51,046 bases of DNA from Promethearchaeia archaeon (GCA_029856105.1 JAHQWH010000035.1:1-51046), one strand, 5' to 3'; shown: positions 7,059-44,635, counted from the first letter of the stretch. Notes: generated from the letters alone by a model not told the origin. A program made the numbers and translations.

Positions 7059-7088
7059 AATTTTACCTACTCGATATAATCAATAGTT

Positions 7089-8218: not shown

Positions 8219-8392
8219 AAAATCTTCCTAATCATTTATTTAAGGATTAAATTAATTATGTTAATAAAAAATGCTTAAAAAAAGTTTGGAATTAAGCGGA
8301 TATCCTTTCTTATAAACTTTATCCTTTTAAGCCCTTAATAAATAGACAGAAAAAAGTATTTTATAATAATTTATATTATTTTAAGGAAATAT

Positions 8393-9829: not shown

Positions 9830-9964
9830 TTTCTAAACCTACCTATTTTGATAAAATTCTTCTATAAATATATCAACGAAATGAATATAAAAATTTATTT
9901 AAAACATAGTCATTTCACTAGTAGTTATTACAAATCATTAATTTAAGATTAATGTGAAGATTAA

Positions 9965-11541: not shown

Positions 11542-11832
11542 ATGAAGATTGTAACCGTTAATGTACCTGAAAGTTATATAGGTGCTATAAATAAATTGAT
11601 AGGGGAAAATGGATTGTATCCCAGCCGCTCAGAATTGATTAGATGTGCCGTCCGAGATTTCCTTTTAAAAGAACTTAAAATGGCTAACAACATGGCTAAA
11701 TATAATGAAGCTGAAATTGATGATTTTGACGATAAAAATTTTGTACGCGTACCAATAGAAAGCAGAAATGAAAAGTCTGAACCGGTTCGCGAATTTAAAA
11801 CTTACAAAATTATAAAGAGGTTAGAACACTAA
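11542..11832 (+). CDS. Ribbon-helix-helix (CopG/MetJ-type) transcription regulator
   Basis: MKIVTVNVP..Y...I..L...GLYPSRSELIR.AVRDFL. Confidence 0.88.
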   Translation: MKIVTVNVPESYIGAINKLIGENGLYPSRSELIRCAVRDFLLKELKMANNMAKYNEAEIDDFDDKNFVRVPIESRNEKSEPVREFKTYKIIKRLEH

Positions 11833-12154
11833 CATTATTCAATAAATTGTATTGTAAAATATTTATTTAACCATTAGCAGAATAGAGTTCTTATTTTTTT
11901 TTTTCTTTTTTTAAATAACTGGTTTTAAAATGGATTAAAATAAAATAGATTCATTACGTTTTTGTATAATAATTGAATGGTGTTAGATTGAACAAATTTT
12001 AACATTTACTCAACATTATTGTAATTTATATAAATATGTTTTTAACTAATTAATTTTGATGAATTAATACGCGAATAAAGTGATAAATTAATATGAAGTT
12101 ATAAGTTAAATATTTAATAATAGTATAATCTAGTCAAAATATGATCAAGAAACT

Positions 12155-13435: not shown

Positions 13436-13588
13436 GGATAATCTATATTTCATCTTCCTGTCTTTTACTTTAATATAACCCAAATATTCATTTTTGTAAA
13501 TAATCTCAATATTTAAATTTCAATTAAAACTAGATTTATATCTATTACGCAACATATAATGAATGAGTAATTTTGTGAGAGATTCAAC

Positions 13589-14737: not shown

Positions 14738-14927
14738 TTAAAAGCATGTCTATTTTCTATGATGATATTAATATCTATTTCGTTAAATTTGAGCAGAAAA
14801 CCGCACATAGACAAATAAATATTGAAAAAATAAGAGAAAATCATCAATTATTATTTAATTATTAAAATAATTTTTCACTAATTTTAACTAAAAAATAATA
14901 AAAAAAGGGAGATAAATATTTAGTATT

Positions 14928-25641: not shown

Positions 25642-26763
25642 CTACATTTGATTAACTTGTTTATTTAATTCTGAAATTATATTATCTTTCTCAGTAATAA
25701 TTGATTTTAATTTGTTTATATTTTTCTGTAGATTTTCGACTAATTCTGGCATTGATCCAGCAGAAACCGCAGTTGGGGCCAACTTTGATAATTTTAAGTC
25801 TGTTATTATAGCTTCTTTTTCTCGTATTTTACTTTCAAGGTCTATTATTTTTTGTTCGATGTTTTGGGTGGCAATCTTCGTTGCTTCTATATCCCTAACA
25901 ACAAGAGAACTTTGTATTTCTTCAAGATCTTTCTTAAGGGATTTGTTTTCTTCTTTCAATGATTCCAAATCTTGAGAGCTAAATTGGAATCCTTTTTCTT
26001 CTAAAGCATTCTTAAGTTGCGATTTCTCTTCGGTTAATTTTTCAATCACTCGTTTGTATTTGGTTAAATCCGATTGTAGATCTTTACATAAAATTTCAAG
26101 TGGCATTGACGACGGTTCATGAGGGAGTGGTTTGATAACGGTAGGTTCGGGGGTTTTAGGAGGTTCTACTTGGAGTACATAGTCTACAGGATCTTCTTTC
26201 ATTTTTTCAACTAATTGCTTATTTAGTGAGTTAATCTCTTCCGATAATGCTGAAATTTTTGACTCTAGATTTGTTGCGTTAGATTTCCTTTTATTTAAAT
26301 CAGATTGCAGCTCCTCAACCAACGCGCTATTTATCGGAGTAGTTGGTCCTGATGTAGAAATCCCCGTTGTTTGCAGTTGAGATATTAGACTATCCTTGGC
26401 TTTAATTTCTTCGTCCTTTTCTAACAAGAGCTTTATCATACTTGTTGCTTTACTACTAAGCTCTGAATTTTCGACCTCTAATTCGTTCATTTTTATGCTT
26501 ATTTCAGCTACCGCCTCTTCTTTCTCTACTTTTAATTTTTCTTTTTCATTAACAACACTTTTAAGGATTTCCTCAGACCGGGTTATCAAATTAATATTAG
26601 CAGAAATTTTTTTTCTTAAATCTTCGTTTTCTTTTTGTAAAGATTCTATTTTTTTTATTGACTCTCCTATTAACGAAGAAGTATTTTCTGTTGTGATTTT
26701 TTTTTTCCACAAAGAGATGAAGTCAACTTTCTCATCGGGTTGAATTTTTTTATTTTCTGACAT
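25642..26763 (-). CDS. Long coiled-coil protein
   Basis: Heptad-rich in E/K/L, interrupted by Pro/Ser/Thr linkers. Confidence 0.8.
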   Translation of the reverse strand: MSENKKIQPDEKVDFISLWKKKITTENTSSLIGESIKKIESLQKENEDLRKKISANINLITRSEEILKSVVNEKEKLKVEKEEAVAEISIKMNELEVENSELSSKATSMIKLLLEKDEEIKAKDSLISQLQTTGISTSGPTTPINSALVEELQSDLNKRKSNATNLESKISALSEEINSLNKQLVEKMKEDPVDYVLQVEPPKTPEPTVIKPLPHEPSSMPLEILCKDLQSDLTKYKRVIEKLTEEKSQLKNALEEKGFQFSSQDLESLKEENKSLKKDLEEIQSSLVVRDIEATKIATQNIEQKIIDLESKIREKEAIITDLKLSKLAPTAVSAGSMPELVENLQKNINKLKSIITEKDNIISELNKQVNQM

Positions 26764-30043: not shown

Positions 30044-30509
30044 AGCAATAAAAAGGCAGAAAGCATCGAATTTAAACGAGGTCGGATGCATGGATTAGTT
30101 ATTTGTGGGGTATTCTAAGTTAAAAACTTTGATATTTCTATAATTTTTAAAATAAAACGATAATTCAGAAAAAAAAGGTTTTTAAAATCGGACATACTAT
30201 TTTTATCGGACTTTTTCGCGTAAGCCATAACTCCCATTAGTTAAGGATTAATAACAAAAGTCTGAAAATTTTCGATCGAGAAAACGATATTATATAAAAA
30301 GGAAAAATTCCGGCGATATAGTAAACCGGCTAAGTGAAAAGATTTAAATAGTCGCCAAATAATAGTTATTTCAAAGAAAGATAAAATTCGACCGATTTGA
30401 TCAAGTCTTTTGAGTTTTAATCTGTCGCTAAGTTAAATTTGAAGGATAAGATAAGGTAAGTTAAAATAATAAAAATAAGATAGGGAAAAAATAACAAAAC
30501 AAAAAAAAT

Positions 30510-30629
30510 GACTCCTGCCCCACCCTGGATTTTTGTCTTTTGGTAGTGCGCGAAGCACTCTATACTCCCCCTATTTTGTTTTTGACCTTCTTATTAGGTC
30601 GAGGCGGCAGGAGTTTCCTTTCTACTCCT
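30510..30629. ncRNA. Putative structured RNA / cis element (about 105-120 nt)
   Basis: Closing stem ACTCCTGCC (30511-19)/GGCAGGAGT (30606-14), with inner hairpins AGTGC-GCGAA-GCACT (30545-59) and GACCT-N7-AGGTC (30584-600). It is a GC-rich patch between divergent genes. Strand not determined. Confidence 0.5.
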
Positions 30630-30762
30630 TTTTTGTTTCTTGCTTGTTTAAAATTTTTTATCCTGATACAATCAAATTTAGAATTTTTATCGGTGGGTAC
30701 CAAAGCGTTACTAACCGAAAATATTTCTTTTTCTTTATATAGGTTAAACTTTAGTAGTAGTT

Positions 30763-31038
30763 ATGATAGAAAATTCAAAAGCTATTATTAAGATAAAGTA
30801 CGAACGAGACGGAGTTAGGAGGGCTATCTACGGGGAGATCGGCAAAAACAAGTTAGAAGGGCTGTTCGCGGAAGAGGAGAGTTTTATATGCCTTCAAAAC
30901 GATGGCGAGATAAGGTGGGTAGACAAAGAAGCTATTTTGAGCGTTTCCGAGCTCGAAGCAAAATCGCTCTTGTACGAAAAAGACGAGTTAGAAAACAAAT
31001 CTTTCGCAGTAAAAAAAGAATCTAGAATCGCGCCTTAG
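30763..31038 (+). CDS. Small protein with putative Sm/Hfq-like fold
   Basis: IKIKYERDG..AIYGEI resembles Sm1 and FICLQNDGEIRWVDKEAILSV resembles Sm2/Hfq YKHAI. The fold is inferred by eye. Confidence 0.5.
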   Translation: MIENSKAIIKIKYERDGVRRAIYGEIGKNKLEGLFAEEESFICLQNDGEIRWVDKEAILSVSELEAKSLLYEKDELENKSFAVKKESRIAP

Positions 31039-31081: not shown

Positions 31082-32476
31082 TCATTTCTTTAATGGTTCG
31101 CCACAGATTCTGCAAAACTTTAAATTGGCGGGGCACATAGAGCTACAGTGAGGACAGATTATTCTTTTTACTTTTGCGTCTTTTATACCTATCGAGCGTA
31201 TTCTTTGAGCCACAATCTCCTTCGCTTTGGCAGAATTTTTGCTGTCTATTAATTCTGGGTGATCGGTAAGGTCAACCCTTTCAGGCGATAAAATTACGCT
31301 TCCATACTTTCCAACGTGAATTTCGGTCCCTGCTCTGCTCTTCTTTGCGTATCCGTTTAAAATTTTTACAAGCTCGTTCACGTTAAATTCGTTTTTCTTT
31401 AAAATTTTCGAATGTTTGCCCCATAATATTACTCTAATATCGCCCGTAGGATCGTGGAGCAAAAAAGAAGCTCCTTGCCCCTCGTTCCCATCGTCTCTTT
31501 CAAACTTAAACTTGCTGTAAATCTCTTTAATTCTCCCGTATATCGTAATGGAGTTCATGTTAGGTTCGATGTCATTGATTCTTAATTGAGAGTTTTCGAG
31601 AGCGAAGTTAAAATCCTCGTCTTCCGAAACTCGTAATTTTCTAGCGAAACGGACCAAATACGCTAACCCGCTAAAGCTAGTGCTTAACAGTTTGATTAAT
31701 TCAGTTCTGCTCATTTTCTCGCGCACGGGACCGTTTTCTAACGAAGAGAAAGCGAACTTAACGAAATCGTCCCTTAACGATTCAAATTCGCTCTTAAATT
31801 GGGAAGTCATTCGATAGATCGCGGCTTCCTCGAGGTAAGTGTTAGCAATACTATCGATCTTATCGCTTGAAACTAGTAATTTTATCTTTTCGGCGATTCT
31901 GATTAAGGAAGTAAAGCGAAACTGTTGATCGAAGTAAATACAAAGATAAAAGCCGAACTTAAAGACTCCCTTCGTAAATTCTCGCATAGCTTTTGGCGTA
32001 ATTCCCTCCTTAAAGCTATTGTTGAGGTGATAAAAACTGCGGATAAGAACATTATCGTAATCAAATTGGATCGAGCTTATTTTTGGTAATTCGTCTCGAA
32101 CGTTCCGACCGTAAAGAAGGATTGAATTTTCCGGAAGTCTTAGCTCGAGCAAACTCCACTCGTAATTTGCAAAAGACTCCTTTTTAAATTGCTCCCGATC
32201 TTTGAATCCTTTTAGGCTATTAAATCCTATCCAGATTTCTTTATCCTCTACCTGCTTTTTCTCGAACCTCACTTCGGTCCAGTCTTGCTTTGGGATACTT
32301 TCTAAAGAATCGACTATTACGACCAAATCTACATCGTTTTTTATCCAATTGGGAGGGAGGTTCTCGTCGAAATAGCTTCCAATTCCGAACACGCTTACGC
32401 TGTGGTCCGAAAATCGCGATTCGAGGTCGCCTAAAACTTCTTTGATCAAGGGATCGCGCAAGTATTTTTGGCTCAA
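31082..32476 (-). CDS. Pol-beta-superfamily nucleotidyltransferase + helical domain fused to RPA-like OB fold and zinc ribbon
   Basis: GIGSY...NDVDLVVIV and LLYG; OB segment ITIYGRI...FERDDG.EG....LHDPTGDIRVILWG...VKILNGYAK...EIHVG; C-terminal CPHC..CRIC. TTG start. Confidence 0.85.
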   Translation of the reverse strand: MSQKYLRDPLIKEVLGDLESRFSDHSVSVFGIGSYFDENLPPNWIKNDVDLVVIVDSLESIPKQDWTEVRFEKKQVEDKEIWIGFNSLKGFKDREQFKKESFANYEWSLLELRLPENSILLYGRNVRDELPKISSIQFDYDNVLIRSFYHLNNSFKEGITPKAMREFTKGVFKFGFYLCIYFDQQFRFTSLIRIAEKIKLLVSSDKIDSIANTYLEEAAIYRMTSQFKSEFESLRDDFVKFAFSSLENGPVREKMSRTELIKLLSTSFSGLAYLVRFARKLRVSEDEDFNFALENSQLRINDIEPNMNSITIYGRIKEIYSKFKFERDDGNEGQGASFLLHDPTGDIRVILWGKHSKILKKNEFNVNELVKILNGYAKKSRAGTEIHVGKYGSVILSPERVDLTDHPELIDSKNSAKAKEIVAQRIRSIGIKDAKVKRIICPHCSSMCPANLKFCRICGEPLKK

Positions 32477-32616
32477 AACGAGAACGCTATTTTTTTTTAT
32501 ATGGATTAATAACTAGAATGCCGATATCATTTAAATATTAGATATTAAAATATGTAAGTATAAGAGAAAAATTGTAAACCATCTAGAAATATATAAAAAA
32601 CATAAAAATTAAAAAC

Positions 32617-33840
32617 CTAAAACTTATTTTCTAACTCTTCTAACTTTTTTAACATCCAACCTTTAAACTTTGAAAAATTTTCTATTGGCGGTATAGAATC
32701 CGATCCTACGCGTTTAATTTTCTTTACTTGCTTACTTTTCTTAACGGGGGAGGGAAGCGTTTTAGGACCTTCATTTTTTCGAACGAATTGGGTCGAAGAC
32801 CCTGGCTTCAAACGCAAAGAACTCACCGCTTCAGGTTCGCTTTTCCTCTCTGCGTCAAATTCTGGGAGGGAGTAAGGTAAATCAAGCTTGTTTAGCATCG
32901 TCTGGAACTCCACGTGATCGTCTTCGGTTAGAGAGGAATCGTCGCTCGTCGCTCGAAACCACTTCAACGCGAATTCTTGGGGGATCCCTTTTTCCCAGTG
33001 GTGGTTCCGCAAGTAATTATACAGCTTTTTAGGGTAGAAGAGCTGCGGTACTTCTAAATTGGCGGAGTTCACTTTTTCGAACCTGTAATCGTGAATTAAT
33101 TGTACGAATTTCTGGCCGATCTTTCGGTTGACTTTCATTATAATTTCGTACTCGGCAGAATAGTCTATTTCTGATTCGGGGCTCGCGTCTTTTATTTTTT
33201 TTCTAAGTCGTTTCGGTCTATCGAAGCTTGGAATCTCGATATCGTAGTACAATCGGGTAAAATTTAATATCTTGTCCCAATTGATCTGGTCGTAATCCCG
33301 GAGGATCTCAGGGAGCTTATCGGCGTCGTTTTTCTCGTTAAGCTGGAGGAATACTTTAGTTGCTACGCTCTTTATCTTTATCAACTCGTCTAACAACAAC
33401 TGCTTGTCGGGAAACGAGCTAATTAAGTGCCTTTCGAAAGATAAGTCTTGTTTTTCGGGCTCGTAATTTAAGAAAGTCATGCTTTTCTTGTTGTAAAAAA
33501 CGAATCTGGTACCGTTGGCTAAACTTCCGACGTTTTCGTGGGTGTTTACTACGCAACGGACTTTAGGAGAGTCGATTAACCTCTCGATCTCTTCGGTTTT
33601 AGGGTTTAAAACGAAGTAGAAAGTAGGTTGCTGCGAATAACTACTGGCTTCGTACTCGATTATCTCGCTTAAATTATGCACAACAGCAGAGTCGATGTCT
33701 ACTACGTCGTACCCGACAGCAAAAACTTGAAGAGATCTAAGGTGCTTCAAATCTACGTAGGGAAATATCACCAAGTTTTTCTGCTGGAAAAACAACAAGT
33801 TCAAAAATTCAGGAGTAATGAAATCGTATTGGGTATCCAT
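32617..33840 (-). CDS. Hypothetical protein
   Basis: 407-aa ORF 16 bp downstream of mglA. No family recognised. Confidence 0.8.
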   Translation of the reverse strand: MDTQYDFITPEFLNLLFFQQKNLVIFPYVDLKHLRSLQVFAVGYDVVDIDSAVVHNLSEIIEYEASSYSQQPTFYFVLNPKTEEIERLIDSPKVRCVVNTHENVGSLANGTRFVFYNKKSMTFLNYEPEKQDLSFERHLISSFPDKQLLLDELIKIKSVATKVFLQLNEKNDADKLPEILRDYDQINWDKILNFTRLYYDIEIPSFDRPKRLRKKIKDASPESEIDYSAEYEIIMKVNRKIGQKFVQLIHDYRFEKVNSANLEVPQLFYPKKLYNYLRNHHWEKGIPQEFALKWFRATSDDSSLTEDDHVEFQTMLNKLDLPYSLPEFDAERKSEPEAVSSLRLKPGSSTQFVRKNEGPKTLPSPVKKSKQVKKIKRVGSDSIPPIENFSKFKGWMLKKLEELENKF

Positions 33841-33856
33841 ATTTTTTAACCCTTTT

Positions 33857-34540
33857 TTAACTTTTTAATTCTCCCCTTAAAAAATTGAATATTACTTGTA
33901 CCATCAAATCCTCGAAGCACCGTCTGACGCTCTCGCCTTCTAACGCCACGGTGGGGTAAATTACTAGCGTTCCGTCCTCGTACGCCTCGAACTGAGGTAG
34001 ACCGAGCTCTTTTTTAAAGTCTTCTACGGATATCGGCTCGTCCAAATCTCTTTTGTTGAGCTGTATAACGTACGGAATTTGTTGGTCCCGCGTGAAGCTC
34101 GATAGCTCTCGGAAACTGCGTTTGTTTTGTTCCATCTTTTCGGGGTCGGAATCCGCAACGAACACGACTCCGTCGGCACCGTCAAGCACGTACTCGCGGG
34201 TGGATAAAAAGCGTTCTTGCCCCGTAGCCGTTACTATCTGGGTAATTACGTTGTACTTTATTTTTGCGAGGTTTAGGTAAAAAGACAGGCGGACGGAGTC
34301 TTGCCAGAGGGTTCTGCCATCGGTCGTCTCGATCGAATAACCCCTATTTAACTTCACGGCGTCGAACTTCTCGCGTAGCCTAAAGTAATTGGTGGTTTTG
34401 CCTGATTCGCCAGGGCCCCAGTAAACTACTTTGAACTGAAGCACTTTTTTTAAGGAGTTCGAACACGACTTACCGCTCAGACCTAACTCTTCTCCTTCCT
34501 TTTGCGCTTCTTTTCCTTTTCTTTTCGAATCTACGGTCAC
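33857..34540 (-). CDS. mglA: MglA-type small GTPase
   Basis: KVVYWGPGESGKTTN, DGRTL (intrinsic Arg), TGQ....TR..VL.GADGVVFVADS and QLNKRD. Confidence 0.9.
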   Translation of the reverse strand: MTVDSKRKGKEAQKEGEELGLSGKSCSNSLKKVLQFKVVYWGPGESGKTTNYFRLREKFDAVKLNRGYSIETTDGRTLWQDSVRLSFYLNLAKIKYNVITQIVTATGQERFLSTREYVLDGADGVVFVADSDPEKMEQNKRSFRELSSFTRDQQIPYVIQLNKRDLDEPISVEDFKKELGLPQFEAYEDGTLVIYPTVALEGESVRRCFEDLMVQVIFNFLRGELKS

Positions 34541-34563
34541 TTTTTTAATCGCCTCGCTTTAAA

Positions 34564-35097
34564 TTAAGTGGATTGAAACACTTTCCGCTTCAATTCTTTG
34601 AGGTGGGTCTTTAGCTCTTGCTCGGTCATCTTCAACTTGGTCATGATCTCCTGATCTTTAACGATGGCTTCTTTGATTTTTACTGAGAACTTTCTCATCT
34701 GCAAAATGAGAACTCCGATGTTAACCTCGTTGTCTACGAGAAGAACTACTAAAATCTCCCTTTTGCCTTTTTTATTGAGCACGACGTCCCCTATAGACTT
34801 GACGTAAAGCTGTAAATCTTTGTAGATTAAAGTCGCCCTGGTTAAAGAGTCGGTCTCGAAAAAATCTTGAGCTTGCCTCGCCACCCCGTACAGAGCGGCG
34901 CCGATCGAGCTTAAGTCCCAGTAATTCAACTTACGGTCGAACCGGGAGTCGATCGCTATTATTTTTGCGTCTTGGTCGATGGCAATTAGCCCGTAAATGT
35001 AGCCCCTTCGAGTTAGCATCCCGTAATTGTACCTAACTTCGTCTAACACCACCGCTATTTCGTTCTCGTATAAGGCTTTTGGCACGAATAACGTCAT
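34564..35097 (-). CDS. Roadblock/LC7 (MglB-like) protein
   Basis: GLIAIDQDAKII, SSIGAALYGVA and LVVL....VNIG.L..QMRK. Lies directly upstream of mglA. Confidence 0.8.
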   Translation of the reverse strand: MTLFVPKALYENEIAVVLDEVRYNYGMLTRRGYIYGLIAIDQDAKIIAIDSRFDRKLNYWDLSSIGAALYGVARQAQDFFETDSLTRATLIYKDLQLYVKSIGDVVLNKKGKREILVVLLVDNEVNIGVLILQMRKFSVKIKEAIVKDQEIMTKLKMTEQELKTHLKELKRKVFQST

Positions 35098-35296
35098 TTT
35101 TTATTTTATCACCAAAATTTTATAGTTTTAAAGTTAGAGAACGAAATAATCCTCGACTATTTAAAGGAAAAAGTGCGAAAAAAACTTCCCTTAAACACAA
35201 AATTGCCCAACCCTTATAGTTTTAAAACGAAGGGCGTAATTTTTCTTTAAATAGTTAGAAAAAAATCTGATAGTAAGATTATTTAAACGAAACTAC

Positions 35297-35815
35297 ATGA
35301 ACGTAATGGAACGATTAGGTAAAACCTTTCTATTGGTTATCGAACCTCTTGACTTTAGTATTAAGGAGGATTCGTTTAACTGTAGCGAATTTGGGTTCAT
35401 GGTTGGGACTGAATCGTCTTGGTATCTTGAAAATATATTTCAATTCTGCAGGGATTATTACAAGAACCGAAGCGATTATCTGAAATCAAACGCGTTAGGT
35501 TCCTTAAAGGAAGAGATCAAAAAAAGTCTGGAACAAATTATTGATAAAGATGTTAAAAACGACGAGGATTTACTTCGATTAATAGGAACATTTGTTGACA
35601 TATCGTGTTATACCACTCATTCTCACTGTAAAACCACGTATTTAACCGTATTTACCATGGACGTTGAATCTCAACTTCTTTATTGCTGCTATGTCGGGTC
35701 TAACGAATATAAAGATCAGGAGGAGCTTTCCAAACAATTCTTTAAAAAGATAAAGAGACCTAGCACAGAGAAATATGATGGGTCTTGTTTTGAAATCTAC
35801 CAATTTCTAAATTAA
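35297..35815 (+). CDS. Hypothetical protein
   Basis: 172-aa ATG ORF divergent from the roadblock gene. Confidence 0.7.
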   Translation: MNVMERLGKTFLLVIEPLDFSIKEDSFNCSEFGFMVGTESSWYLENIFQFCRDYYKNRSDYLKSNALGSLKEEIKKSLEQIIDKDVKNDEDLLRLIGTFVDISCYTTHSHCKTTYLTVFTMDVESQLLYCCYVGSNEYKDQEELSKQFFKKIKRPSTEKYDGSCFEIYQFLN

Positions 35816-35925
35816 CTTTAAAAAAGAAATAGAACATCTTGAAATTTTTAGAGCGGTCTAATATTGAGGAAAGCATAACTTGCTCAAAATTTTCCTTTTA
35901 AAATTAAATTAAAGGAGTTTCTCAA

Positions 35926-36446: not shown

Positions 36447-37193
36447 ATGAAGAGAATAGTATATTTTGGAAAGAGAACATTAGATACTTTCATAATTAAT
36501 TTAACCTATGAAAGATTGCTTCCTGGAATAAAACTTGATAAAGTTAATCCTTTTGCAGAAGCCATTCAAGCGTATTATCCTACAAAACCACTATTAGGTT
36601 TACTCAAAAGCCGTTTTACAGAAATTCATTTAGCCCCTCTTACTTTCTGGGATACAAATAAAAAAAATCGAGTGGAACTTGGGCAAGATTATCTTTTATT
36701 TACTTTTTCTGACTATTCTAAATGGGAAAAAGAATTATCTAAAGTATTGGAGGTATTTAATGCTTTAGGTGATATCTTAGACCTTCCAAAAATTAGTAAA
36801 ATAGTGTTAACATATGTTGATATTTTTCCTATTCCAAAGGAGTCGTTTATGTATAATAATTTTTTTACTATGCCGAATTTCAACTTTGAACACGAGTGGG
36901 ATATAAATTTCTATGACGCTAATTTAGGATTTGTACCTTTTGAAGAGGAATCTGAAGAGGGAAAGAGAAAAGTTGTTATAAGATTTAAATCTATCCCCCA
37001 AAATCATAACGAGATAAACTATAATTTTAGATTAGAGACAGTAGGAAGTGTAGATAATACTAGTATAATCCAAGATCCTGAAATTCTTAAAAGTCATTTA
37101 GATGATTGTCATGATAGAATTGAAGATTATTTTGTAAATTTTTTGACAGATGAATATAGGAATTATCTCGAACTTGAAGTAGATGATTATTGA
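36447..37193 (+). CDS. TIGR04255-like family protein
   Basis: YP, DYSKWE, ISKIVLTYVDIF (corresponds to I.RIGLRYIN) and the C-terminal L...HD.I...F...LTDEYR pattern. Confidence 0.7.
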   Translation: MKRIVYFGKRTLDTFIINLTYERLLPGIKLDKVNPFAEAIQAYYPTKPLLGLLKSRFTEIHLAPLTFWDTNKKNRVELGQDYLLFTFSDYSKWEKELSKVLEVFNALGDILDLPKISKIVLTYVDIFPIPKESFMYNNFFTMPNFNFEHEWDINFYDANLGFVPFEEESEEGKRKVVIRFKSIPQNHNEINYNFRLETVGSVDNTSIIQDPEILKSHLDDCHDRIEDYFVNFLTDEYRNYLELEVDDY

Positions 37194-37825
37194 GAGGGGT
37201 TGAAATGAGTAATAGGATTGAGGAAAGTTTCCAATCACCTGATTTAAGAAAATTTGAAGTTGAAATTCAAGATTGGATTATCGAAAACGCGTCTATTATT
37301 ATAGACTGGTATACTGATGATGCAACATCTGCTAGAAGTGAGGAGGAATTGGAGGAAGATCCGTATGCAGAATTTAAAAAGAAAATTAAAGAAATTAAAG
37401 AGAAAATAAAAAATCTGGTCAATAAAGAGACTTCTGAAAAAATTCCACACATTTTTCACCACTTAATTATGACAGTCCTTCGACTCTTAAGAGATCCTGA
37501 GATTAGAAATTCGATAATCTTAAATTCAATAACGCTAATTTACATTTCTGTTTTATATGAATTGAAAATTTATGATCCGGATACATACTCAAGTTTAGAA
37601 CCTTATGACCAATTTTCTCCAGACACATTCTATTTCGTTAGTAATGAATTATCAAGAGATAATGATCTAGTTGAAATTATTGATGAGGAATTTTGGAAGG
37701 ATAAGATTTTTGAGAGGATTATAGAGAAGGAAGAAAACAAATTATTGAAACATTCCTTAAGATCATTAATATTGTATTCTAATACTATTCAGAATAGAAA
37801 GGAAAGGTTGTTGAAATTAAAATAA
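37190..37825 (+). CDS. Hypothetical acidic helical protein
   Basis: Coupled to the upstream gene. Alternative ATG at 37204. Confidence 0.7.
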   Translation: MRGVEMSNRIEESFQSPDLRKFEVEIQDWIIENASIIIDWYTDDATSARSEEELEEDPYAEFKKKIKEIKEKIKNLVNKETSEKIPHIFHHLIMTVLRLLRDPEIRNSIILNSITLIYISVLYELKIYDPDTYSSLEPYDQFSPDTFYFVSNELSRDNDLVEIIDEEFWKDKIFERIIEKEENKLLKHSLRSLILYSNTIQNRKERLLKLK

Positions 37826-37843
37826 AAAATTTGGATCTTAATC

Positions 37844-38986
37844 ATGGAAAAGACAATTTATAAATACCGGGATATGATTAAGAGTGAACTTGCAATTTCT
37901 CAAGGAGACATTTTTTGTAATTTACCTTATTTAATGTACGACTACTTAATTCGATCGAGTCCTAATATTCTAGATAAGTTCCAAAATGAAAAAGATGAGA
38001 TTTTTACAATAATATTAAAAAATGGAGGTCAATTGCAAGTGGAAGGGTTCATAGATGCTCACTGGGGCATTTTAGCTAGTCAAGATTGTGACATCCGCCC
38101 TAAAAAGGACTTAATTTTTTTTCCACTTGAACCTACAAAGATTCTCTATCATTCACAAAATATTATTAAAGCTATTGATGAAAATATAAAGGATACAACG
38201 AGAAAATTATATTTGCCAAGAATTTCTCCTCCAAATGGTAATAGAACATATGGTCCATTTGAAATTATTTTTCATAATCCATTTAATGTTCCCTATAATT
38301 TAATAATTGATAATTTAGAACATTGTTGGAAGGCAAGGATTATAGAACAAGCACGTAAAATATTTATTGGAAAATTATCTCATTTCTATTCAAGAATTCC
38401 AATAGAAGAAATCATTTTTCTTGAAAATAAAGAGATAACAAAATATTTTAATAAAGGTTGGAAGAATTTTTGGGGAGTTAAAAGGGATTCAGAAGAAATA
38501 TTTCAAGAAAGAATAACTAGGATAAAACAAGTTAGAGATGTTCTAAGACTTGTGAAAAGAGAACAAGACCTGCAAAATATCTTCTATTATGATCTTAACT
38601 TACTAACTAATATAAAAAAATTTCTTGAATATATCTCCTGGTTTGAAAATGCTGAAGAATTAATAAAAAAATGTAAAACGGCTGAATTAAATGTAAGAGA
38701 AAGACCAGATGTCGCAAACTTCATGTTTAAAGATATTATCAATGTATTTATTATTCAAGAGGACTCCTTTCTGGATAAATGGAAAGAATTTTTCAAAGCA
38801 AATGAATCTAACATAAAAAAAATTAGAAAAGATAAAGTAGAAATTTCAGGTATATTTCCAGATGACTTATTAGAATCGCATCAAGATTTTGTAGATTGTG
38901 CTAACAATGCAATTAAAACAAAAAATTTACTCGATATATTTCCTGCTTACCTTAGAAGATATTCTGAATTATTTAACAATTCTTAG
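37844..38986 (+). CDS. QGD...SQDCD family protein (PemK/MazF-like pattern) with helical C-terminal extension
   Basis: SQGDIF, GILASQDCDI, FFPL, LYLP and L.HFYSR. Confidence 0.6.
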   Translation: MEKTIYKYRDMIKSELAISQGDIFCNLPYLMYDYLIRSSPNILDKFQNEKDEIFTIILKNGGQLQVEGFIDAHWGILASQDCDIRPKKDLIFFPLEPTKILYHSQNIIKAIDENIKDTTRKLYLPRISPPNGNRTYGPFEIIFHNPFNVPYNLIIDNLEHCWKARIIEQARKIFIGKLSHFYSRIPIEEIIFLENKEITKYFNKGWKNFWGVKRDSEEIFQERITRIKQVRDVLRLVKREQDLQNIFYYDLNLLTNIKKFLEYISWFENAEELIKKCKTAELNVRERPDVANFMFKDIINVFIIQEDSFLDKWKEFFKANESNIKKIRKDKVEISGIFPDDLLESHQDFVDCANNAIKTKNLLDIFPAYLRRYSELFNNS

Positions 38987-39118
38987 ATATAAGAATTTTT
39001 AAAATAGAAGCTGGCTAATTTTTTAAGAAAATTAAAAGATATGCTTGTATACCTTAGGATTTCAATACCGGAATAAAAAATAAAAACTAGTTCATAAAAA
39101 ATTAATGCAGTATAATTA

Positions 39119-42100
39119 TTATTTTTCGATCTTTTCTATCCAATCTAATTGTTTCATAGATTCAATTTTTTGATTAATGACATCTTTATTTAGTTTTTCG
39201 TAAATTTCTTTGATTACTTCATTAATAGAGTCTTCAAGAGTAAGCAATTGATTCATTTCATTATCTTTCAACTTGTATTTCAATTTTAATTTGATCCAAG
39301 TCTCAAAAGCAATCTTTTTAAATTCTTTTTTAACAAAAGTTAAAAGATCTTGGTATAATCCTTCTTTTTCTAATTTCTCTTTAAAATAAATCTCATAGAC
39401 TATGAAATTTAATAAACTATCATCAAAAAATTTAATGATTTCTCTATTTCCATCTGATTGGTATAAAAAATGTAAAATGTTTACAAAATCTACAAAAAAA
39501 GTCTGATCTTTTAAGTGTTTTATCGGTAACTTACGAAAATCATCTGGATAAAAAGTATTAGGAAGTTTATGGACTCTGATTCCATTTAAGTATACATTTA
39601 TGAATTTAGAATTCAAAATTGCTAAAATAAATTCATATGTATAATTATTAGAAATTTCTTCTAATTGCTCTCTTGTTTTATCAAAATTATTTTTTTTTAG
39701 ACTGTTTTTAATACTATTATTTTCTACACCATTTAAATCAATAAACCTTCTAAAAACATAAAGGCTATCGTTATTAATTACATCTAATACCGCAATTAGA
39801 CCTTCAGTTTGTCTACCTCTCAAAATTTTTTTTCCCTTATAAAGTTCTGGAAAGGTTGGTCTTCTTAGCTTATTAGGAGATCTATCAGTATCCCATTCTA
39901 AATATTTAATTTCATTGATTTTAAATCTACTCGTATATTTTCCTTCAATATACTTTTTTTTATAAATTTCTGATGGTATATCTGAAATCAGATCATCTTT
40001 AGTAAATTCACCTTTAGCTATTTTCTCATTTGCATTTGGTACTATTCCTACACTGATATAACAAATATTTCCCAATCTCTCGTTTTTTCCTAAATCATAA
40101 CTTAAGATATCTGGAATATTCTTTTTCCATAAAAATTCTGAATTTTGATCTATAACATAACTTTCAGAAATTTTCTTAAAAGAACCTGAATGAATTACTT
40201 TTTTTGTTTCTGTAATATCATTTAATTTTTTGACAAATAATAAAATTGGATTTATTCCTATTCCTTTAAATACGTTGAAGTCTTCAAAATAATCTATTAA
40301 AGGAATTTTATAATTCTCTTGTATCCAATTTCTTAATTTTTTTGAATATTTTACTGTACAAATGGCATCAGATACTACAAAACTAAAATATCCTTTATTT
40401 TTCAATAAATCTTTCACACTTCTTTCTATAAATGCAACAAATATATCCCATTTTTCCCATAGATTTTCATATGATGGTAACTGTTCGAGTAAATTTCGTT
40501 GAGTTAAAAACCATTCATCCGCTGTATCAGCTCTTACAAAGGGAGGATTTCCAATAACAATATCAAAACCTTTAAATTCTGGTTTCCTAAAAAACACATC
40601 AGGAAATTCCATAATCCAATAAAAGGGATTTAATTGCAGTATATCCTTTATTCCAATTCTTTTTTTTAATTCAATATTATTTATATTTTCCCAATTAATA
40701 TCTAAACTCAAAAGAAATTTAGAGAATGGGTTCTTTCCATATTCTGAATAATATTTAAAGTTAAAGTTACTAGTTGGATAAATGGATATAACCATTTCAG
40801 TATTCCTCTTAAGTGAACATGTTAATCCATTAATACTTCTGATTTTTTTATAATCAATGGCAACTGGTTCTTTAAAGTTAATTTTAAAATAAATCAAATC
40901 GTTATTTTTGTTTAGCTCACTCATTAAATCTTGAAATATTTTTCTAAAATTCTTTTTATTTACATAATTATTCATATAAATTGGCGTCAAAGGTATGATA
41001 ATCTTTTGATTTTGAAAATCAGAAGCTATTAATTTATTTAAATTGTCTTTAAAATCATCAATAATATTATTAATATCCTTCCTAATTTGGATTTTCCTTG
41101 ATTCCTCAATTCTTTCGTCCTTTCCATAATAACAACTAATAAGTTGTTGTTTTTGTTGTAAAATATCCCTTATGGCAGATCCACTCTCGCTCAAATATTT
41201 TTCATCAATTCTCTGAAATTTTTCTGTTCCAATTGTACTTAATCTTTCTTTTTCATGATAACCAATTAAACTATTGCCACATCGTATATTATATTCAATA
41301 TTCGGCAATACTGGTAATTGTGTGTACTCTAATGCTCCTTCAAGTTCTTCTGGTAGTTTTATTGCCCAAAGCCATAGTCTAAGCTCACAAATTTCAATAG
41401 CATTAATATTAATATCAACACCATAAAGATTATCTTGTAAAATATGTCTTTTAATTGAATATCTGTCTGGAAATGGCATTTGGCTATCAGGAATTTCATC
41501 TTCTCCTAAATGATGTTTTAAAAATCTTCCACAACCGGCATAGCATTTCTCATATAAATATAACAATTTATCAGCCGCTTTTTCTAAAAATGCTCCTGAA
41601 CCACATGCAGGATCGCATATCTTTATATTAGGTAATATTTTTTTCAATAAATAGAAATAAACTTCAGTTTTATTAGCTAAATTATCAATATCTGTTATTT
41701 TTTTTATTGGTAGTATATCTTTAAATTCGTTGTTTATCCTTTCAATAGTATAAGGCATAATAGTGTTATTAGCAATATATTCAGTAATAGTCTCAGGAGT
41801 ATAATAAGCTCCTGTTTTCTTTCTTTCAACACCAATTGTTCTTTCTAAAATATATCCTAATATCTCTGGTTTAATAGTGTTAACTCCAATCGCGTTGTTA
41901 TTATTTTCATCAATATTAGCTTTTGTAAAATCGAATTTTTTAAAAAATTCCCATATATCCTCTGCTGCTTCTGGATTTAAATGAACTCTTGTTAAATTGC
42001 CTACATCATCGATTTCTATACCATTTGGTCTAAATAATCCGCCATTTAAATAAGGCATATCCTTAAAAATTTCCATAATATCTTTTGAACGATCTTTAGG

Positions 42101-43039
42101 TCTTTTATTGAATACTTCAAAAAAAAGAGAATTCAATTCATTTATCCAATATCTTTTTTCAGTCTTTAAAATACCATCGCTTATAGGATCCGATTTCAAT
42201 CTCTTCCATGAAATAATTATTTTTATAAAAAGTAATCGAGAAAAGATCTTCCGATAATAATTTATAATATTCTGTTCATATTCCTCTTGAGTTAAGTCAG
42301 TAGGTTTTTCATAATTTATGATTCTAATTGGTGTTTTTATCTTAGATTTTAATCCTAATATCTTCTTTATTCGTTCTTGAAATTGATTATAAAATCTTGA
42401 AGTGATTTCTTGTTTTTGATCATCATGTTCCTCTAAAATGTATTGACGACCTCTCCCTAGTTTAATATTTTTAATGATTTCCAGTATTTCCCATGGTTTA
42501 TATTCTTCGATTTCAAAGCTTCCTTTACCATCTGGTTTAATATAATACCATTCTATGAAATTAGTAACAACCGAATCACATACATTATATAATCGCCTAT
42601 CAAGGTTATACCATTCTAATGCTTGTTCAATTCCTTCTCCATCTCCTTTTGTTGTAAGCGATTTGTTTAGATGTTCTATTTCAAATAAAAGGTCATGAAT
42701 CTCTGGATCTGAACTTCTAATTTGAAAATCTGGTTTCTTAATTTTTACTTTTCTTTTTTGTTCCTTTTCGAATTTATTTAAATAGGCTTTTCCTTTAATG
42801 TGTATTTGTCTTGTTATTTCTAAAGGATTTACTTCCAATTCTCTAAACATTTCTTTTATTATATCTTCTGTAAGAGGTTCGGGCTCTCCTCCTTCTTTTG
42901 TATGAGCTGTCGTTAAATCTATATTTTTAGTTTTATCCTTATTAAATAAAGAACCTATATATTCATCCTTAATTTTTTTTTTAAAGATCTGAAGATACTT
43001 ATTGTAAAGCTCTTTAAACGTAGTTATTTGGCTAACCAT
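39119..43039 (-). CDS. Type IIG restriction-modification enzyme (Eco57I-like fused REase-MTase-TRD)
   Basis: PD..ExE nuclease variant, YLNGGLF, GAYYTP, DPACGSGAF, YGVDIN, DIVIGNPPF and C-terminal ILNS...LPI TRD. Confidence 0.92.
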   Translation of the reverse strand: MVSQITTFKELYNKYLQIFKKKIKDEYIGSLFNKDKTKNIDLTTAHTKEGGEPEPLTEDIIKEMFRELEVNPLEITRQIHIKGKAYLNKFEKEQKRKVKIKKPDFQIRSSDPEIHDLLFEIEHLNKSLTTKGDGEGIEQALEWYNLDRRLYNVCDSVVTNFIEWYYIKPDGKGSFEIEEYKPWEILEIIKNIKLGRGRQYILEEHDDQKQEITSRFYNQFQERIKKILGLKSKIKTPIRIINYEKPTDLTQEEYEQNIINYYRKIFSRLLFIKIIISWKRLKSDPISDGILKTEKRYWINELNSLFFEVFNKRPKDRSKDIMEIFKDMPYLNGGLFRPNGIEIDDVGNLTRVHLNPEAAEDIWEFFKKFDFTKANIDENNNNAIGVNTIKPEILGYILERTIGVERKKTGAYYTPETITEYIANNTIMPYTIERINNEFKDILPIKKITDIDNLANKTEVYFYLLKKILPNIKICDPACGSGAFLEKAADKLLYLYEKCYAGCGRFLKHHLGEDEIPDSQMPFPDRYSIKRHILQDNLYGVDININAIEICELRLWLWAIKLPEELEGALEYTQLPVLPNIEYNIRCGNSLIGYHEKERLSTIGTEKFQRIDEKYLSESGSAIRDILQQKQQLISCYYGKDERIEESRKIQIRKDINNIIDDFKDNLNKLIASDFQNQKIIIPLTPIYMNNYVNKKNFRKIFQDLMSELNKNNDLIYFKINFKEPVAIDYKKIRSINGLTCSLKRNTEMVISIYPTSNFNFKYYSEYGKNPFSKFLLSLDINWENINNIELKKRIGIKDILQLNPFYWIMEFPDVFFRKPEFKGFDIVIGNPPFVRADTADEWFLTQRNLLEQLPSYENLWEKWDIFVAFIERSVKDLLKNKGYFSFVVSDAICTVKYSKKLRNWIQENYKIPLIDYFEDFNVFKGIGINPILLFVKKLNDITETKKVIHSGSFKKISESYVIDQNSEFLWKKNIPDILSYDLGKNERLGNICYISVGIVPNANEKIAKGEFTKDDLISDIPSEIYKKKYIEGKYTSRFKINEIKYLEWDTDRSPNKLRRPTFPELYKGKKILRGRQTEGLIAVLDVINNDSLYVFRRFIDLNGVENNSIKNSLKKNNFDKTREQLEEISNNYTYEFILAILNSKFINVYLNGIRVHKLPNTFYPDDFRKLPIKHLKDQTFFVDFVNILHFLYQSDGNREIIKFFDDSLLNFIVYEIYFKEKLEKEGLYQDLLTFVKKEFKKIAFETWIKLKLKYKLKDNEMNQLLTLEDSINEVIKEIYEKLNKDVINQKIESMKQLDWIEKIEK

Positions 43040-43737: not shown

Positions 43738-44175
43738 TCACGATGTATGTAATTCTTGCGTTTCAATTTTCTTAAGAACGGGCTCCATTTCTTTAAAGGA
43801 TTTACGGATTTTATGGAAATAATAACCCAACTTATACCCTTTGGAGCAATTAGTAAATAGCATGAAGTTATTGTCTGAATCTCCAACTAAAATAATAGTA
43901 TAACCTTTTACCCCTCTAATTACAATTTCTCTTAAATCTCCTTGTCCCAAACCTCTACTAATTTTTTCACCCAACGAAATTAATGTGGCAGGGCTCGCAC
44001 TATAAATATCTGCTACAATATCTGCAGTTTCAGAGCTAGCTATTCTCAATCCCGTTTTTGATACGATTGCAGAACCCTCCAAATCTGTGGAACTTTCTAA
44101 CTTCTCTAAATTTTGCATAATTTCCCCCAATATTTCTAGATCGATGTTTATTTCTGATATTTCAATTTTTTCCAT
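43738..44175 (-). CDS. Roadblock/LC7 domain protein
   Basis: LEGSAIVSKTGLRIAS, ATLISLGEKI...L.QG.L.EI.IRG..G..I and LG. Confidence 0.9.
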   Translation of the reverse strand: MEKIEISEINIDLEILGEIMQNLEKLESSTDLEGSAIVSKTGLRIASSETADIVADIYSASPATLISLGEKISRGLGQGDLREIVIRGVKGYTIILVGDSDNNFMLFTNCSKGYKLGYYFHKIRKSFKEMEPVLKKIETQELHTS

Positions 44176-44227: not shown

Positions 44228-44635
44228 TTAGATTTCAATGTAAAACTCCTTAATTCCTTTAACGTTAAAGGAATTTAACTCATCGGCTAAATAATCCGCG
44301 GTATCTATATATCTTGTAAATATAATTATTTTATTTCCTTCTTCAATTAAATCTTGAAGCACATTATTGTAAAAGTAATTAAGATTAACATCATTGGAAT
44401 AACCGAGTAGTTCCTCCGTAGATTTTTCGATCTCCCGTAACTTCTTTACAATATTGGGAGCTAGTTTTTTACGTCCAAGTTCAGTATCAATATTTCTATC
44501 GATCTCATGTTCATCATAGGAATCTTCATTACTAATATCAGTTTTGTTTTCCAACTTGCCGTCAAGGATGAACTCGCCTATCTTCGTTTTGATTTTAATA
44601 GTCCGCTCCGAAGCGTCGTATAATTGCACCTCCAA
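44228..44635 (-). pseudogene. Fragment of SNF2-like helicase (motif IV region)
   Basis: GNKIIIFTRYIDTADYLADEL is present, but the other helicase motifs are absent and the ORF ends right after it. Confidence 0.65.
44252..44275. repeat. Perfect 24-bp palindrome
   Basis: AATTCCTTTAACGTTAAAGGAATT. Confidence 0.9.

What the first reader, a model, noticed from the sequence alone, without database searches (positions are those of the whole stretch)
31082..35097. Candidate new system: MglB-MglA GTPase switch, unknown protein and a nucleotidyltransferase fused to an RPA-like OB fold
Seen: four co-oriented genes in a GC/CpG-shifted block, namely roadblock, MglA, a 407-aa orphan (gaps of 23 and 16 bp) and, after 140 bp, an NTase-OB-Zn ribbon gene. 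Known: MglA/MglB form a GTPase/GAP switch, and Pol-beta-fold NTases act in TA systems and in cGAS/OAS-type signalling. Inference: a horizontally mobile Asgard signalling or defence module in which nucleic-acid sensing drives NMPylation or nucleotide synthesis coupled to a GTPase switch. It also sits beside a defence island. I know no described system with this composition. The 140-bp gap contains a TATA-like tract, so the last gene may be independent.
Basis: partly seen in the sequence, partly recalled or inferred. Interest (0 to 1): 0.82.

Follow-up and report, generated by a model that had tools for sequence, protein, structure and literature searches.

The report
Known Asgard GTPase operon plus NTase-OB gene
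The four genes are real, but the first three are a horizontally acquired second copy of an already published Asgard roadblock / MglA-type GTPase / DENN-like operon, and the fourth, a nucleotidyltransferase fused to a single-strand-DNA-binding fold, looks like a separately transcribed gene linked to that operon in only one sub-lineage.

Summary
Four intact co-oriented minus-strand genes lie at 31082-35097, with gaps of 23, 16 and 140 bp, in a block whose GC is at the 99.8th percentile of the genome.

- Genes 1-3 are a divergent roadblock protein, an MglA-family GTPase and a 407-aa protein.
- The 407-aa protein is not an orphan. It has more than 470 homologues and a DENN/folliculin-like predicted fold.
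- These three genes stayed together, in the same order, in every locus long enough to show them (41 with all three full-length, of 44 examined).
- The trio very probably corresponds to the roadblock + small GTPase + DENN operon predicted by Liu et al. (bioRxiv 2020). This scan has reached that trio many times on other DNA.
- This genome also has its own canonical copy on another contig. The window copy is a recent intragenus transfer, 94.7% nucleotide identity to a metagenomic contig whose flanks are unrelated.

Gene 4 combines an ANT/KNTase/HalB-like nucleotidyltransferase, a HEPN-like helical domain, an RPA-type OB fold and a C4 zinc ribbon.
- Its family is patchy and often pseudogenised.
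- Outside the window's sub-clade it never shares a contig with the trio.
- It lacks the trio's conserved promoter.
- It survives in a locus where the trio has decayed.

No known defence family matched any of the four. Function remains untested.

The parts
34564..35097 (-). Gene A: 177-aa divergent roadblock/LC7 (MglB-like) protein with a C-terminal helix
   Evidence: hhalign against this genome's own Robl_LC7 proteins gives probability 90.7%, E 1.3e-6. The top PDB profile hit is a roadblock protein, 9jue_D, at E 0.36, which is not significant on its own. Atlas features point to Robl_LC7 / MAPKK1_Int clusters. The protein is 67-99% identical across 42 loci.
33857..34540 (-). Gene B: 227-aa MglA-family small GTPase
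   Evidence: It matches M. xanthus and T. thermophilus MglA at E 1e-22 to 6e-21, against 6e-6 for the best Arf/Arl hit. The sequence shows the P-loop GPGESGKT, switch-I Arg-Thr, G3 TATGQ (Thr in place of Asp) and NKRD.
32617..33840 (-). Gene C: 407-aa DENN/folliculin-like protein without a longin domain, followed by a helical domain, a disordered linker and a conserved C-terminal helix
31082..32476 (-). Gene D: 464-aa NTase (about 8-130) + HEPN-like helical domain (about 138-280) + RPA-type OB fold (295-405) + C4 zinc ribbon (441-458)
35153..35174 (-). Conserved promoter-like motif (TTTTTCC-TTTAAATA-GTC), 56 nt upstream of gene A
   Evidence: The same motif sits about 44-56 nt upstream of gene A in loci of most genera examined. 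A PWM scan finds it before A only, not before D, in the window, L005 and L006.
32477..32616 (-). C-D intergenic gap: oligo-T runs straight after the stop of C, then an A/T-rich TATA-like tract about 15-27 nt before the TTG start of D
   Evidence: Read directly from the sequence. That this means a separate transcript for D is an inference.
35297..35815 (+). Divergent 172-aa ORF of unknown function, inside the transferred segment, preceded by a copy of the same promoter-like motif at 35240-35254
   Evidence: The regex motif hit lies 43 nt upstream of the ORF. The segment 31092-35854 is 94.7% identical to L005. There is no Pfam, NCBIfam or PADLOC hit.
30269..31038 (+). Far edge of the shared segment: a non-coding stretch 30269-30621 (88.9% identity to L005) and a 91-aa ORF at 30763-31038 preceded by the motif at 30728
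   Evidence: blastn and the motif scan. The ORF has no family hit.

Best explanation
The region holds two things that travelled together, not one four-part system.

(1) Genes A-B-C are a copy of a conserved Asgard small-GTPase switch operon. B is an MglA-type GTPase with its own catalytic Arg and Gln. A is a roadblock protein that, by analogy with MglB, should bind B-GTP as a dimer and stimulate hydrolysis. C is a DENN/folliculin-fold protein without a longin domain that most likely acts as exchange factor, co-regulator or effector adaptor for B. The three are transcribed from one conserved promoter about 50 nt upstream of A. The output is unknown.

(2) Gene D is a separately transcribed nucleotidyltransferase of the ANT/KNTase/HalB structural type. 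Its C-terminal RPA-type OB fold and zinc ribbon most likely tether it to single-stranded nucleic acid, as primer, substrate or activator. It belongs to a patchy, frequently decayed accessory family of this GTDB family (Lokiarchaeia-type, by the submitters' names).

The segment entered this genome recently from a higher-GC member of the same genus, as a block of about 4.8 kb plus a shorter shared stretch beyond D. The genome keeps its own canonical A-B-C copy on contig C45.

Shown: the domain identities, the conservation of A-B-C, the lack of a C-D linkage outside one sub-clade, the composition shift and the near-identity to L005. Inferred: GAP and GEF roles, co-transcription, nucleic-acid binding by D, and the direction of the transfer.
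For: Identities.

A-B-C invariance:
- B and C are present in 44 loci and A in 42. All three are full-length in 41. The shortfalls are loci cut by a contig end.
- The concatenated tree follows the genera.
- A distant trio keeps the same order, with A 45%, B 54% and C 21% identical.

Second copy and transfer:
- The canonical copy is on G000:C45.
- The window block has GC3 of 45-60% against 27-35% for the C45 copy.
- It is 94.7% identical in nucleotides to L005 over 4.8 kb, with unrelated flanks.
- The window clade nests inside genus g1, away from the genome's own copy.

Independence of D:
- The D family was found in 20 of 68 sampled genomes of the GTDB family. Some matches are fragments carrying stop codons.
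- In about 15 genomes that hold both families, the matches to C and D, some of them fragments, lie on different contigs.
- In genus g1, D has its own conserved site with no A, B or C within 8 kb.
- Elsewhere its neighbours are HD, UvrD and DUF4037, or a TPR gene with Nmad2/3 and SLFN genes.
- A TPR gene separates C from D in L006 and L074.
- In L076, B is truncated and C is frameshifted while TPR and D are intact.
- The promoter motif is absent before D, and the gap shows a T-tract and a TATA-like tract.
Against: Within the window's sub-clade the C-D adjacency is stable. It is seen directly in L005, L006/L007 and L074. Equal contig lengths suggest about ten further metagenomic contigs carry both genes, so selection for the linkage in that lineage cannot be excluded.

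All four genes share the same compositional anomaly and moved together.

The canonical trio sits co-directionally just downstream of an RPA-like two-OB gene. An OB fold next to the trio is therefore a recurring theme, which could mean a functional tie to ssDNA-binding proteins.

I could not verify that Liu et al.'s protein families are the same as these.
Confidence: 0.7

Rival explanations
1. One reading: all four genes form one signalling or defence system, in which the NTase-OB protein senses single-stranded nucleic acid and its NMPylation or nucleotide synthesis is coupled to the MglA/MglB switch.
Against: There is no co-occurrence outside one intragenus sub-clade. D lacks the trio's promoter and has its own TATA-like tract. 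A TPR gene is inserted between C and D in relatives. TPR-D stays intact where B and C are decayed. No significant PADLOC hit was found: the best are E 0.011 for D and 7.5e-4 over 56 residues for A. The trio is vertically inherited like a housekeeping module.
Confidence: 0.12
2. The trio is a GTPase switch serving DNA replication, repair or recombination in this family of Lokiarchaeia, not membrane traffic. In the window's lineage, D supplies the ssDNA-binding partner that the RPA-like gene supplies at the canonical locus.
For: The canonical order FEN1/XPG > 202-aa > RPA-like (two OB folds, about 310 aa) > A > B > C is co-directional in genera g1, g2, g3, g5 and g7, and partly kept in g6. FEN1 and the RPA-like gene are each present in 31 of 44 loci. 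The RPA-to-A gaps are only about 75-90 bp in several loci. Seven of 13 long C proteins end in a Zc3h12a-type NYN nuclease domain. A divergent C-like protein again lies beside RPA-like and FEN1 genes in L072. A Top1-type zinc-ribbon gene precedes the distant trio in L071. Two earlier follow-up reports of this scan reached the same idea on other DNA.
Against: Synteny within one taxonomic family can be inherited without any function. L071 has no RPA or FEN1 gene nearby. The OB fold of D is closer to the genome's main RPA on contig C34 (44-48%) than to the locus RPA-like gene (36%), so it is not a relocated copy. The promoter motif is found only sporadically before the RPA-like gene, once in 12 loci scanned. 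There is no experimental evidence.
Confidence: 0.15
3. The high-GC block is an assembly or binning artefact (a chimeric contig) and not part of this organism's genome.
For: The MAG has 6% estimated contamination and 238 contigs. The block's composition differs sharply from both flanks.
Against: The block is internal to a 51-kb contig, with host-like composition on both sides. A chimera would give one junction, not an insertion with two. The genes are intact.
Confidence: 0.03

Closest known systems
Asgard operon of a 'LAMTOR1-like' roadblock protein, a small GTPase and a DENN-domain protein, predicted by Liu, Makarova et al. (bioRxiv 10.1101/2020.10.19.343400; read)
   Same: The three components are the same, they are tightly linked in an operon-like way, and the order is conserved across lineages. 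The third protein has the DENN/folliculin fold and no fused longin domain, and the roadblock is a separate gene.
   Different: The paper calls the GTPase Rab-like, whereas here it is clearly MglA-type. With HMMER, the C family was found only in the window's own GTDB family and one other family of the same order, not in 'most Asgard'. Identity with the paper's protein clusters could not be checked. This copy is a horizontally acquired second copy with an NTase-OB gene appended.
MglA/MglB polarity switch of Myxococcus xanthus and Thermus thermophilus (PDB 6hjh, 3t12)
   Same: B has the GTPase sequence hallmarks: TxxGQ, switch-I Arg, NKxD. The roadblock partner is encoded immediately upstream and carries a C-terminal helix, as MglB does.
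   Different: A is too divergent for Pfam Robl_LC7. The third gene is DENN-like and not RomR/RomX. GAP activity and polarity function are untested. The organism is an archaeon with no known gliding machinery.
Eukaryotic DENN-module regulators (FLCN-FNIP for RagC/D, C9orf72-SMCR8, DENND1 for Rab35, DENND10)
   Different: C has no N-terminal longin (u-DENN) domain and no sequence-level match to Pfam DENN. It carries an extra helical domain and a C-terminal helix. Some family members carry a NYN nuclease tail. The client GTPase is MglA-type.
ANT/KNTase-type nucleotidyltransferases (ANT(3'')(9) 7uy4, AAD(9) 6sxj) and the Hailong defence NTase HalB (9dbh; described in PMC13434031)
   Same: D shares the two-domain module of a Pol-beta NTase plus a HEPN-like helical bundle. 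The GS...DxD catalytic signature is conserved. HalB makes template-independent oligo-dA, which would suit a nucleic-acid-binding appendage.
   Different: D adds an RPA-type OB fold and a C4 zinc ribbon. No HalA-like channel gene is nearby. There is no evidence for an aminoglycoside substrate. The partners seen elsewhere are HD or TPR proteins.
Archaeal RPA (Pyrococcus abyssi Rpa1 OB-1, 8aa9)
   Different: D has a single OB fold fused to an enzyme, not a multi-OB ssDNA-coating protein.

Membership tests
MglA family of small GTPases | Sequence closer to MglA than to any other Ras-superfamily group | tested here: met
   phmmer against PDB gives MglA at E 1e-22 to 6e-21. The next family, Arl8, is at 6e-6.
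MglA family of small GTPases | G3 motif TxxGQ (Thr replaces the Asp of DxxGQ) and an intrinsic switch-I arginine | tested here: met
   TATGQ and the G-R-T-L stretch align with TVPGQ and D-R-T-L of M. xanthus MglA.
MglA family of small GTPases | Adjacent roadblock (MglB-type) partner gene | tested here: met
   Gene A lies 23 bp upstream in the window. A and B are both present in 42 of 44 loci, and the two without A are cut by a contig end.
Roadblock/LC7 (MglB-like) | Roadblock fold or profile similarity | tested here: met
   hhalign of the family alignment A1 against this genome's Robl_LC7 proteins gives probability 90.7%, E 1.3e-6, over 111 columns. Pfam alone gives no hit, and the PDB profile hit is only E 0.36.
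Roadblock/LC7 (MglB-like) | GAP activity towards the cognate GTPase | not testable with these tools
   This needs biochemistry.
DENN domain (core DENN + d-DENN) | Alpha/beta core followed by a helical d-DENN lobe that superposes on solved DENN proteins | tested here: inconclusive
DENN domain (core DENN + d-DENN) | Match to Pfam DENN, Folliculin or C9orf72 sequence models | tested here: not met
   None of the 41 family members, nor the 10 distant relatives scanned, hit these models.
DENN domain (core DENN + d-DENN) | N-terminal longin (u-DENN) domain of the tripartite module | tested here: not met
   The DENN-like lobe begins at residue 1 of the model. The roadblock domain is a separate protein.
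Liu et al. roadblock / small GTPase / DENN operon | Three linked genes with these domains, conserved across Asgard lineages | tested here: met
   The trio keeps the same order in every locus long enough to show it and in a distant trio. The text of the prediction was read.
Liu et al. roadblock / small GTPase / DENN operon | Identity with the paper's own protein clusters and accessions | not testable with these tools
   No supplementary files are held for the paper.
Pol-beta-fold nucleotidyltransferase (ANT/KNTase type) | hG[GS]x9-13Dh[DE]h catalytic signature | tested here: met
   G33-S34 are at least 90% conserved among 66 aligned sequences. D48 and D50 are invariant in the 63 that have those columns. 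Thirteen residues lie between GS and DVD.
Pol-beta-fold nucleotidyltransferase (ANT/KNTase type) | Fold match over the NTase plus helical domains | tested here: met
cGAS/OAS/CD-NTase signalling enzymes | Sequence or fold match to CD-NTase-type cyclases | tested here: inconclusive
   PADLOC 'Cyclase' gives E 0.011 over 47 residues only. No CD-NTase appears among the top 50 structural rows, but the OB fold fills that list.
Hailong (HalA-HalB) defence system | HalB-like NTase fold | tested here: met
Hailong (HalA-HalB) defence system | Adjacent HalA transmembrane effector gene | tested here: not met
   The neighbours are gene C and a 91-aa ORF. PADLOC finds no Hailong component.
MNT-HEPN toxin-antitoxin modules | HEPN domain with the Rx4-6H motif | tested here: not met
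RPA-type OB fold | Sequence and fold match to archaeal RPA OB domains | tested here: met
Known anti-phage defence systems (PADLOC-DB 2.0) | Significant match of any of the four proteins | tested here: not met
   There are only weak partial hits: A at E 7.5e-4 over 56 residues to PDC-M16B, and D at E 0.011. B and C have none.

The most novel reading that the evidence does not exclude
In this family of Lokiarchaeia the roadblock / MglA / DENN-like switch, a relative of eukaryotic trafficking regulators, controls transactions on single-stranded nucleic acid and not membranes. That would explain why it recurs next to ssDNA-binding or nuclease modules in independent arrangements: the RPA-like and FEN1 genes at the canonical locus, a NYN nuclease fused to the DENN-like protein, and the NTase-OB-zinc-ribbon gene appended in the window's lineage. 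On this reading the NTase-OB protein is a lineage-specific output or sensor arm.
Probability: 0.18. Interest if true: 0.75.

Novelty: new variant of a known kind. Interest (0 to 1): 0.36.

Why it matters
The trio bears on how eukaryotic GTPase regulators (DENN, folliculin, Ragulator) arose. It has been in print as a prediction since 2020 and this scan has met it many times, so this copy adds little by itself.

Three things are new here:
1. There is a clear case of recent intragenus transfer that gives one genome two diverged copies of the switch.
2. D belongs to an apparently undescribed architecture, ANT/HalB-like NTase + HEPN-like domain + RPA OB fold + zinc ribbon. Sister forms are fused to SNase or TFIIB-type domains. 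It is a good candidate for a nucleic-acid-tethered, template-independent nucleotidyltransferase.
3. There is more circumstantial evidence that in this archaeal family the switch keeps company with ssDNA-binding and nuclease modules. If that link is functional, it would change the usual 'proto-trafficking' reading of these proteins.

Tried and rejected
- Pfam, NCBIfam and PADLOC on gene C and on ten distant C relatives gave no DENN or other informative hit.
- The PDB profile search with C gave only a marginal ARIH1 hit at E 0.01, judged noise.
- Foldseek and Atlas searches with the C model returned AAA+/clamp-loader-like folds for residues 1-120 only. A degenerate AAA+ reading was considered. 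C has no Walker A motif, and the DENN matches cover about 50 more residues, so DENN-like is preferred but not proven.
- A 433-aa gene downstream of C in L009 was tested as a hidden D homologue and is not one.
- A possible OB fold inside the 658-aa C-like protein P0390 (blastp E 0.019) was not confirmed by NCBIfam.
- No att-like flanking repeats were found, no tRNA gene anywhere in the window, and no integrase family among the genes scanned next to the block.
- The search for related loci with the distant-C alignment failed because no stretch was conserved enough.
- The supplementary tables of Liu et al. are not held.


Full report
**1. What is there**

The window is the whole 51-kb contig C35 of a 3.66-Mb, 92%-complete MAG. 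Four intact minus-strand ORFs lie at 34564-35097 (A, 177 aa), 33857-34540 (B, 227 aa), 32617-33840 (C, 407 aa) and 31082-32476 (D, 464 aa). The gaps are 23, 16 and 140 bp.

The compositional shift is real.
- The block has 41.2% GC against a genome mean of 31.8%. That is the 99.8th percentile of 4-kb windows, and CpG o/e is at the same percentile.
- GC3 of the four genes is 45-60% against a genome median of 26%.

**2. Gene identities**

B matches solved MglA structures at E 1e-22, far better than any Arf, Rab or Ras. It carries the MglA hallmarks: the P-loop GPGESGKT, the switch-I Arg-Thr, G3 TATGQ and NKRD.

A has no Pfam hit. An alignment of 14 orthologues aligns to this genome's own Robl_LC7 proteins with hhalign probability 90.7% (E 1.3e-6, 111 columns). 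The best PDB profile hit is a roadblock protein, though at E 0.36, and language-model neighbours point to roadblock/MAPKK1_Int clusters. A is therefore a divergent roadblock protein with a C-terminal helix, as MglB has.

C is not an orphan.
- It has 477 homologues at E <= 1e-3.
- The full HMMER scan with a family profile found 146 50%-identity cluster representatives.
- Its AF2 model (pLDDT 79) has an alpha/beta domain (1-125), helices to about residue 320, a disordered linker and a conserved C-terminal helix.
- AAA+/STAND hits of similar Z cover only residues 1-120.
- Foldseek and the Atlas see only the AAA-like core.
- C has no Walker A motif, and no Pfam DENN model matches.

I read C as DENN-like without a longin domain, with moderate confidence.

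D's model (pLDDT 83) has three parts.
- A zinc ribbon.

G33-S34 are nearly invariant. D48 and D50 and the four ribbon cysteines are invariant across the family alignment. The enzyme is probably active.

**3. The trio is a conserved, published operon**

I fetched 44 loci around C homologues. B and C were present in all 44 and A in 42, always in the order A-B-C on one strand. All three were full-length in 41. The shortfalls are loci cut by a contig end.

C was found in 48-49 of 68 sampled genomes of the window's GTDB family. With a profile of distant relatives it was also found in 2 of 7 genomes of a second family of the same order, and nowhere else among the 300 Asgard genomes sampled.

A concatenated A+B+C tree follows the genera, so inheritance is mostly vertical.

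A much more distant metagenomic trio keeps the same order, with A 45%, B 54% and C 21% identical.

A conserved promoter-like motif (TTTTTTC(C)TTTAAATA) lies about 44-56 nt upstream of A in most genera.

Liu et al. (bioRxiv 10.1101/2020.10.19.343400) predicted an operon 'conserved in most Asgard archaea' that encodes a roadblock-superfamily protein, a small GTPase and a DENN-domain protein, and proposed a folliculin-like regulatory role. The composition matches. They call the GTPase Rab-like whereas it is MglA-type here, and I could not check their accessions.

Earlier follow-ups of this scan reached the same identification on other genomes. I got there independently, from the fold search and the paper, before consulting them.

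**4. This copy is a recent import**

The genome has a second, canonical trio on contig C45. Its A, B and C are 88%, 74% and 56% identical to the window's copies, and its composition is host-like, with GC3 of 27-35%.

Window 31092-35854 is 94.7% identical at nucleotide level to metagenomic contig L005, and 30269-30621 is 88.9% identical. Nothing else in the window matches L005 apart from a 69-nt stretch at 30684-30752 with 78% identity.

In the tree the window, L005 and L006 form a clade nested in genus g1, apart from the genome's own copy. L005 has about 38% GC overall.

The simplest reading is a recent transfer from a higher-GC congener. The transferred piece is the 4.8-kb block plus the shorter shared stretch beyond D, and it carries A-B-C-D and a divergent 172-aa ORF.

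I found no integrase, tRNA gene or flanking repeats.

**5. D is not a conserved partner**

The N-terminal 290 residues of D define a patchy family.
- It was found in 20 of 68 sampled genomes of the GTDB family. Several genomes hold only fragments with stop codons, and others hold multiple copies.
- Stand-alone forms of about 294 aa dominate. Others are fused to an OB fold, to micrococcal nuclease, or to TFIIB plus nuclease.
- In about 15 sampled genomes that contain both families, the matches to C and D, some of them fragments, are on different contigs.
- In genus g1 the stand-alone form has its own conserved site, with no A, B or C within 8 kb.
- Elsewhere D follows an HD-domain gene in three loci from different lineages. 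In one of them it also lies near UvrD, DUF4037 and Rad50-Mre11-HerA-NurA genes.

Only the window's sub-clade has D after C.
- This is seen in L005, L006/L007 and Loki_b31 L074.
- About ten further contigs are inferred to carry both genes from equal contig lengths.
- In L006 and L074 a TPR gene lies between C and D.
- In L076, B is a fragment and C is frameshifted, yet TPR and an OB-less D are intact, beside Nmad2/3 and SLFN/AlbA_2 genes.

D has no copy of the trio's promoter motif in the window, L005 or L006. The 140-bp gap shows oligo-T runs straight after the stop of C and a TATA-like tract about 15-27 nt before D's TTG.

**6. Defence reading**

None of the four proteins has a significant PADLOC hit.

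A type IIG R-M enzyme at 39119-43039 and a TIGR04255-family gene are nearby, so 'beside defence genes' is fair.

D's likeness to HalB is an interesting lead. HalB is a template-independent oligo-dA synthase that holds the Hailong channel shut (PMC13434031). No HalA-like partner is present here.

**7. A thread that stays open**

The canonical locus reads FEN1/XPG > 202-aa > RPA-like (two OB folds) > A > B > C, co-directional across most genera. In several loci the RPA-to-A gap is only 75-90 bp.

Seven of 13 long C proteins end in a NYN nuclease domain. A divergent C-like protein again lies beside RPA-like and FEN1 genes in L072.

Together with D's RPA-type OB fold, this makes a recurring link between the switch and single-strand-nucleic-acid modules. 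It may be inherited synteny. I give a functional link about 0.15-0.2.

**8. Verdict**

The trio is already known as a prediction. D's architecture and its lineage-specific attachment are a new variant. Nothing here has been tested experimentally.

Noticed in passing
G000:C45 (locus L011: A 10179-10712, B 9499-10152, C 8314-9468, RPA-like 13381-14310, all minus strand): The same genome carries a second, canonical copy of the roadblock / MglA / DENN-like trio with host-like composition, downstream of an RPA-like two-OB gene. Among the 300 genomes sampled, only one other (G228) showed two full-length copies of C.
   Followed up: yes
window 35240-35254 (+) and 30728-30742 (+); also 35158-35172 (-): Three copies of the promoter-like motif TTTTTC(C)TTTA(A/T)ATA lie within the transferred segment. 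They sit before gene A, before the divergent 172-aa ORF (35297-35815) and before the 91-aa ORF (30763-31038). The regex has 38 hits genome-wide against about 4.5 expected from base composition alone.
   Followed up: partly
window 30269-30621: This non-coding stretch is 88.9% identical to L005:11785-12140 although the surrounding DNA is unrelated.
   Followed up: no
loci L017, L018, L024, L039, L047, L049, L050 (C orthologues of 502-556 aa): The DENN-like protein carries a C-terminal Zc3h12a-type NYN ribonuclease domain in genera g2 and g7 (Pfam E 6e-14 for P0255). Two other unrelated tails of about 190-200 aa occur in further long forms.
   Followed up: partly
L076 (ENA ERZ4220937 NODE_585): This is a decayed copy of the island. 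It holds a fragment of B, a frameshifted C, an intact TPR gene and an OB-less NTase, plus fragments of FEN1 and of the NTase, next to Nmad2/Nmad3 and SLFN/AlbA_2 genes.
   Followed up: partly
L008 (GCA_048941405.1), genes at 3820-9359 and 9395-15531: An NTase-OB homologue 42% identical to D follows DUF4037-like, UvrD-helicase and HD-domain genes. It abuts a Rad50-Mre11-HerA-NurA cluster on the other strand.
   Followed up: no
window 31082-32476, protein residues 146-150: R146 and H150 (R-x3-H) are at least 90% conserved in the HEPN-like helical domain of the NTase family. The spacing is one residue short of the HEPN Rx4-6H RNase motif, and its meaning is unknown.
   Followed up: no
window 43738-44175 (-) and 44228-44635 (-): The 145-aa ORF at 43738-44175 is another roadblock/LC7 gene (Pfam Robl_LC7 E 5.7e-12 at 43888-44112). 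A 135-aa ORF sits next to it. This genome has about 15 Robl_LC7 genes above the Pfam cut-off.
   Followed up: no
window 36447-43039: A TIGR04255-family gene (E 3e-15) heads a three-gene run. Beyond it lies a 1306-aa type IIG restriction-modification enzyme (PADLOC REase_MTase_IIG, E 7e-49). The 373-aa coiled-coil protein at 25642-26763 has a weak LmuB-like hit (E 1.5e-8).
   Followed up: partly
L074 (Loki_b31, NJBI01000025.1) 714-2213 and 6512-7921: A group II intron reverse transcriptase lies just upstream of the trio. The NTase-OB gene aligns full-length by tblastn but is annotated as two genes of 118 and 308 aa. This suggests an internal stop or a mis-call.
   Followed up: no
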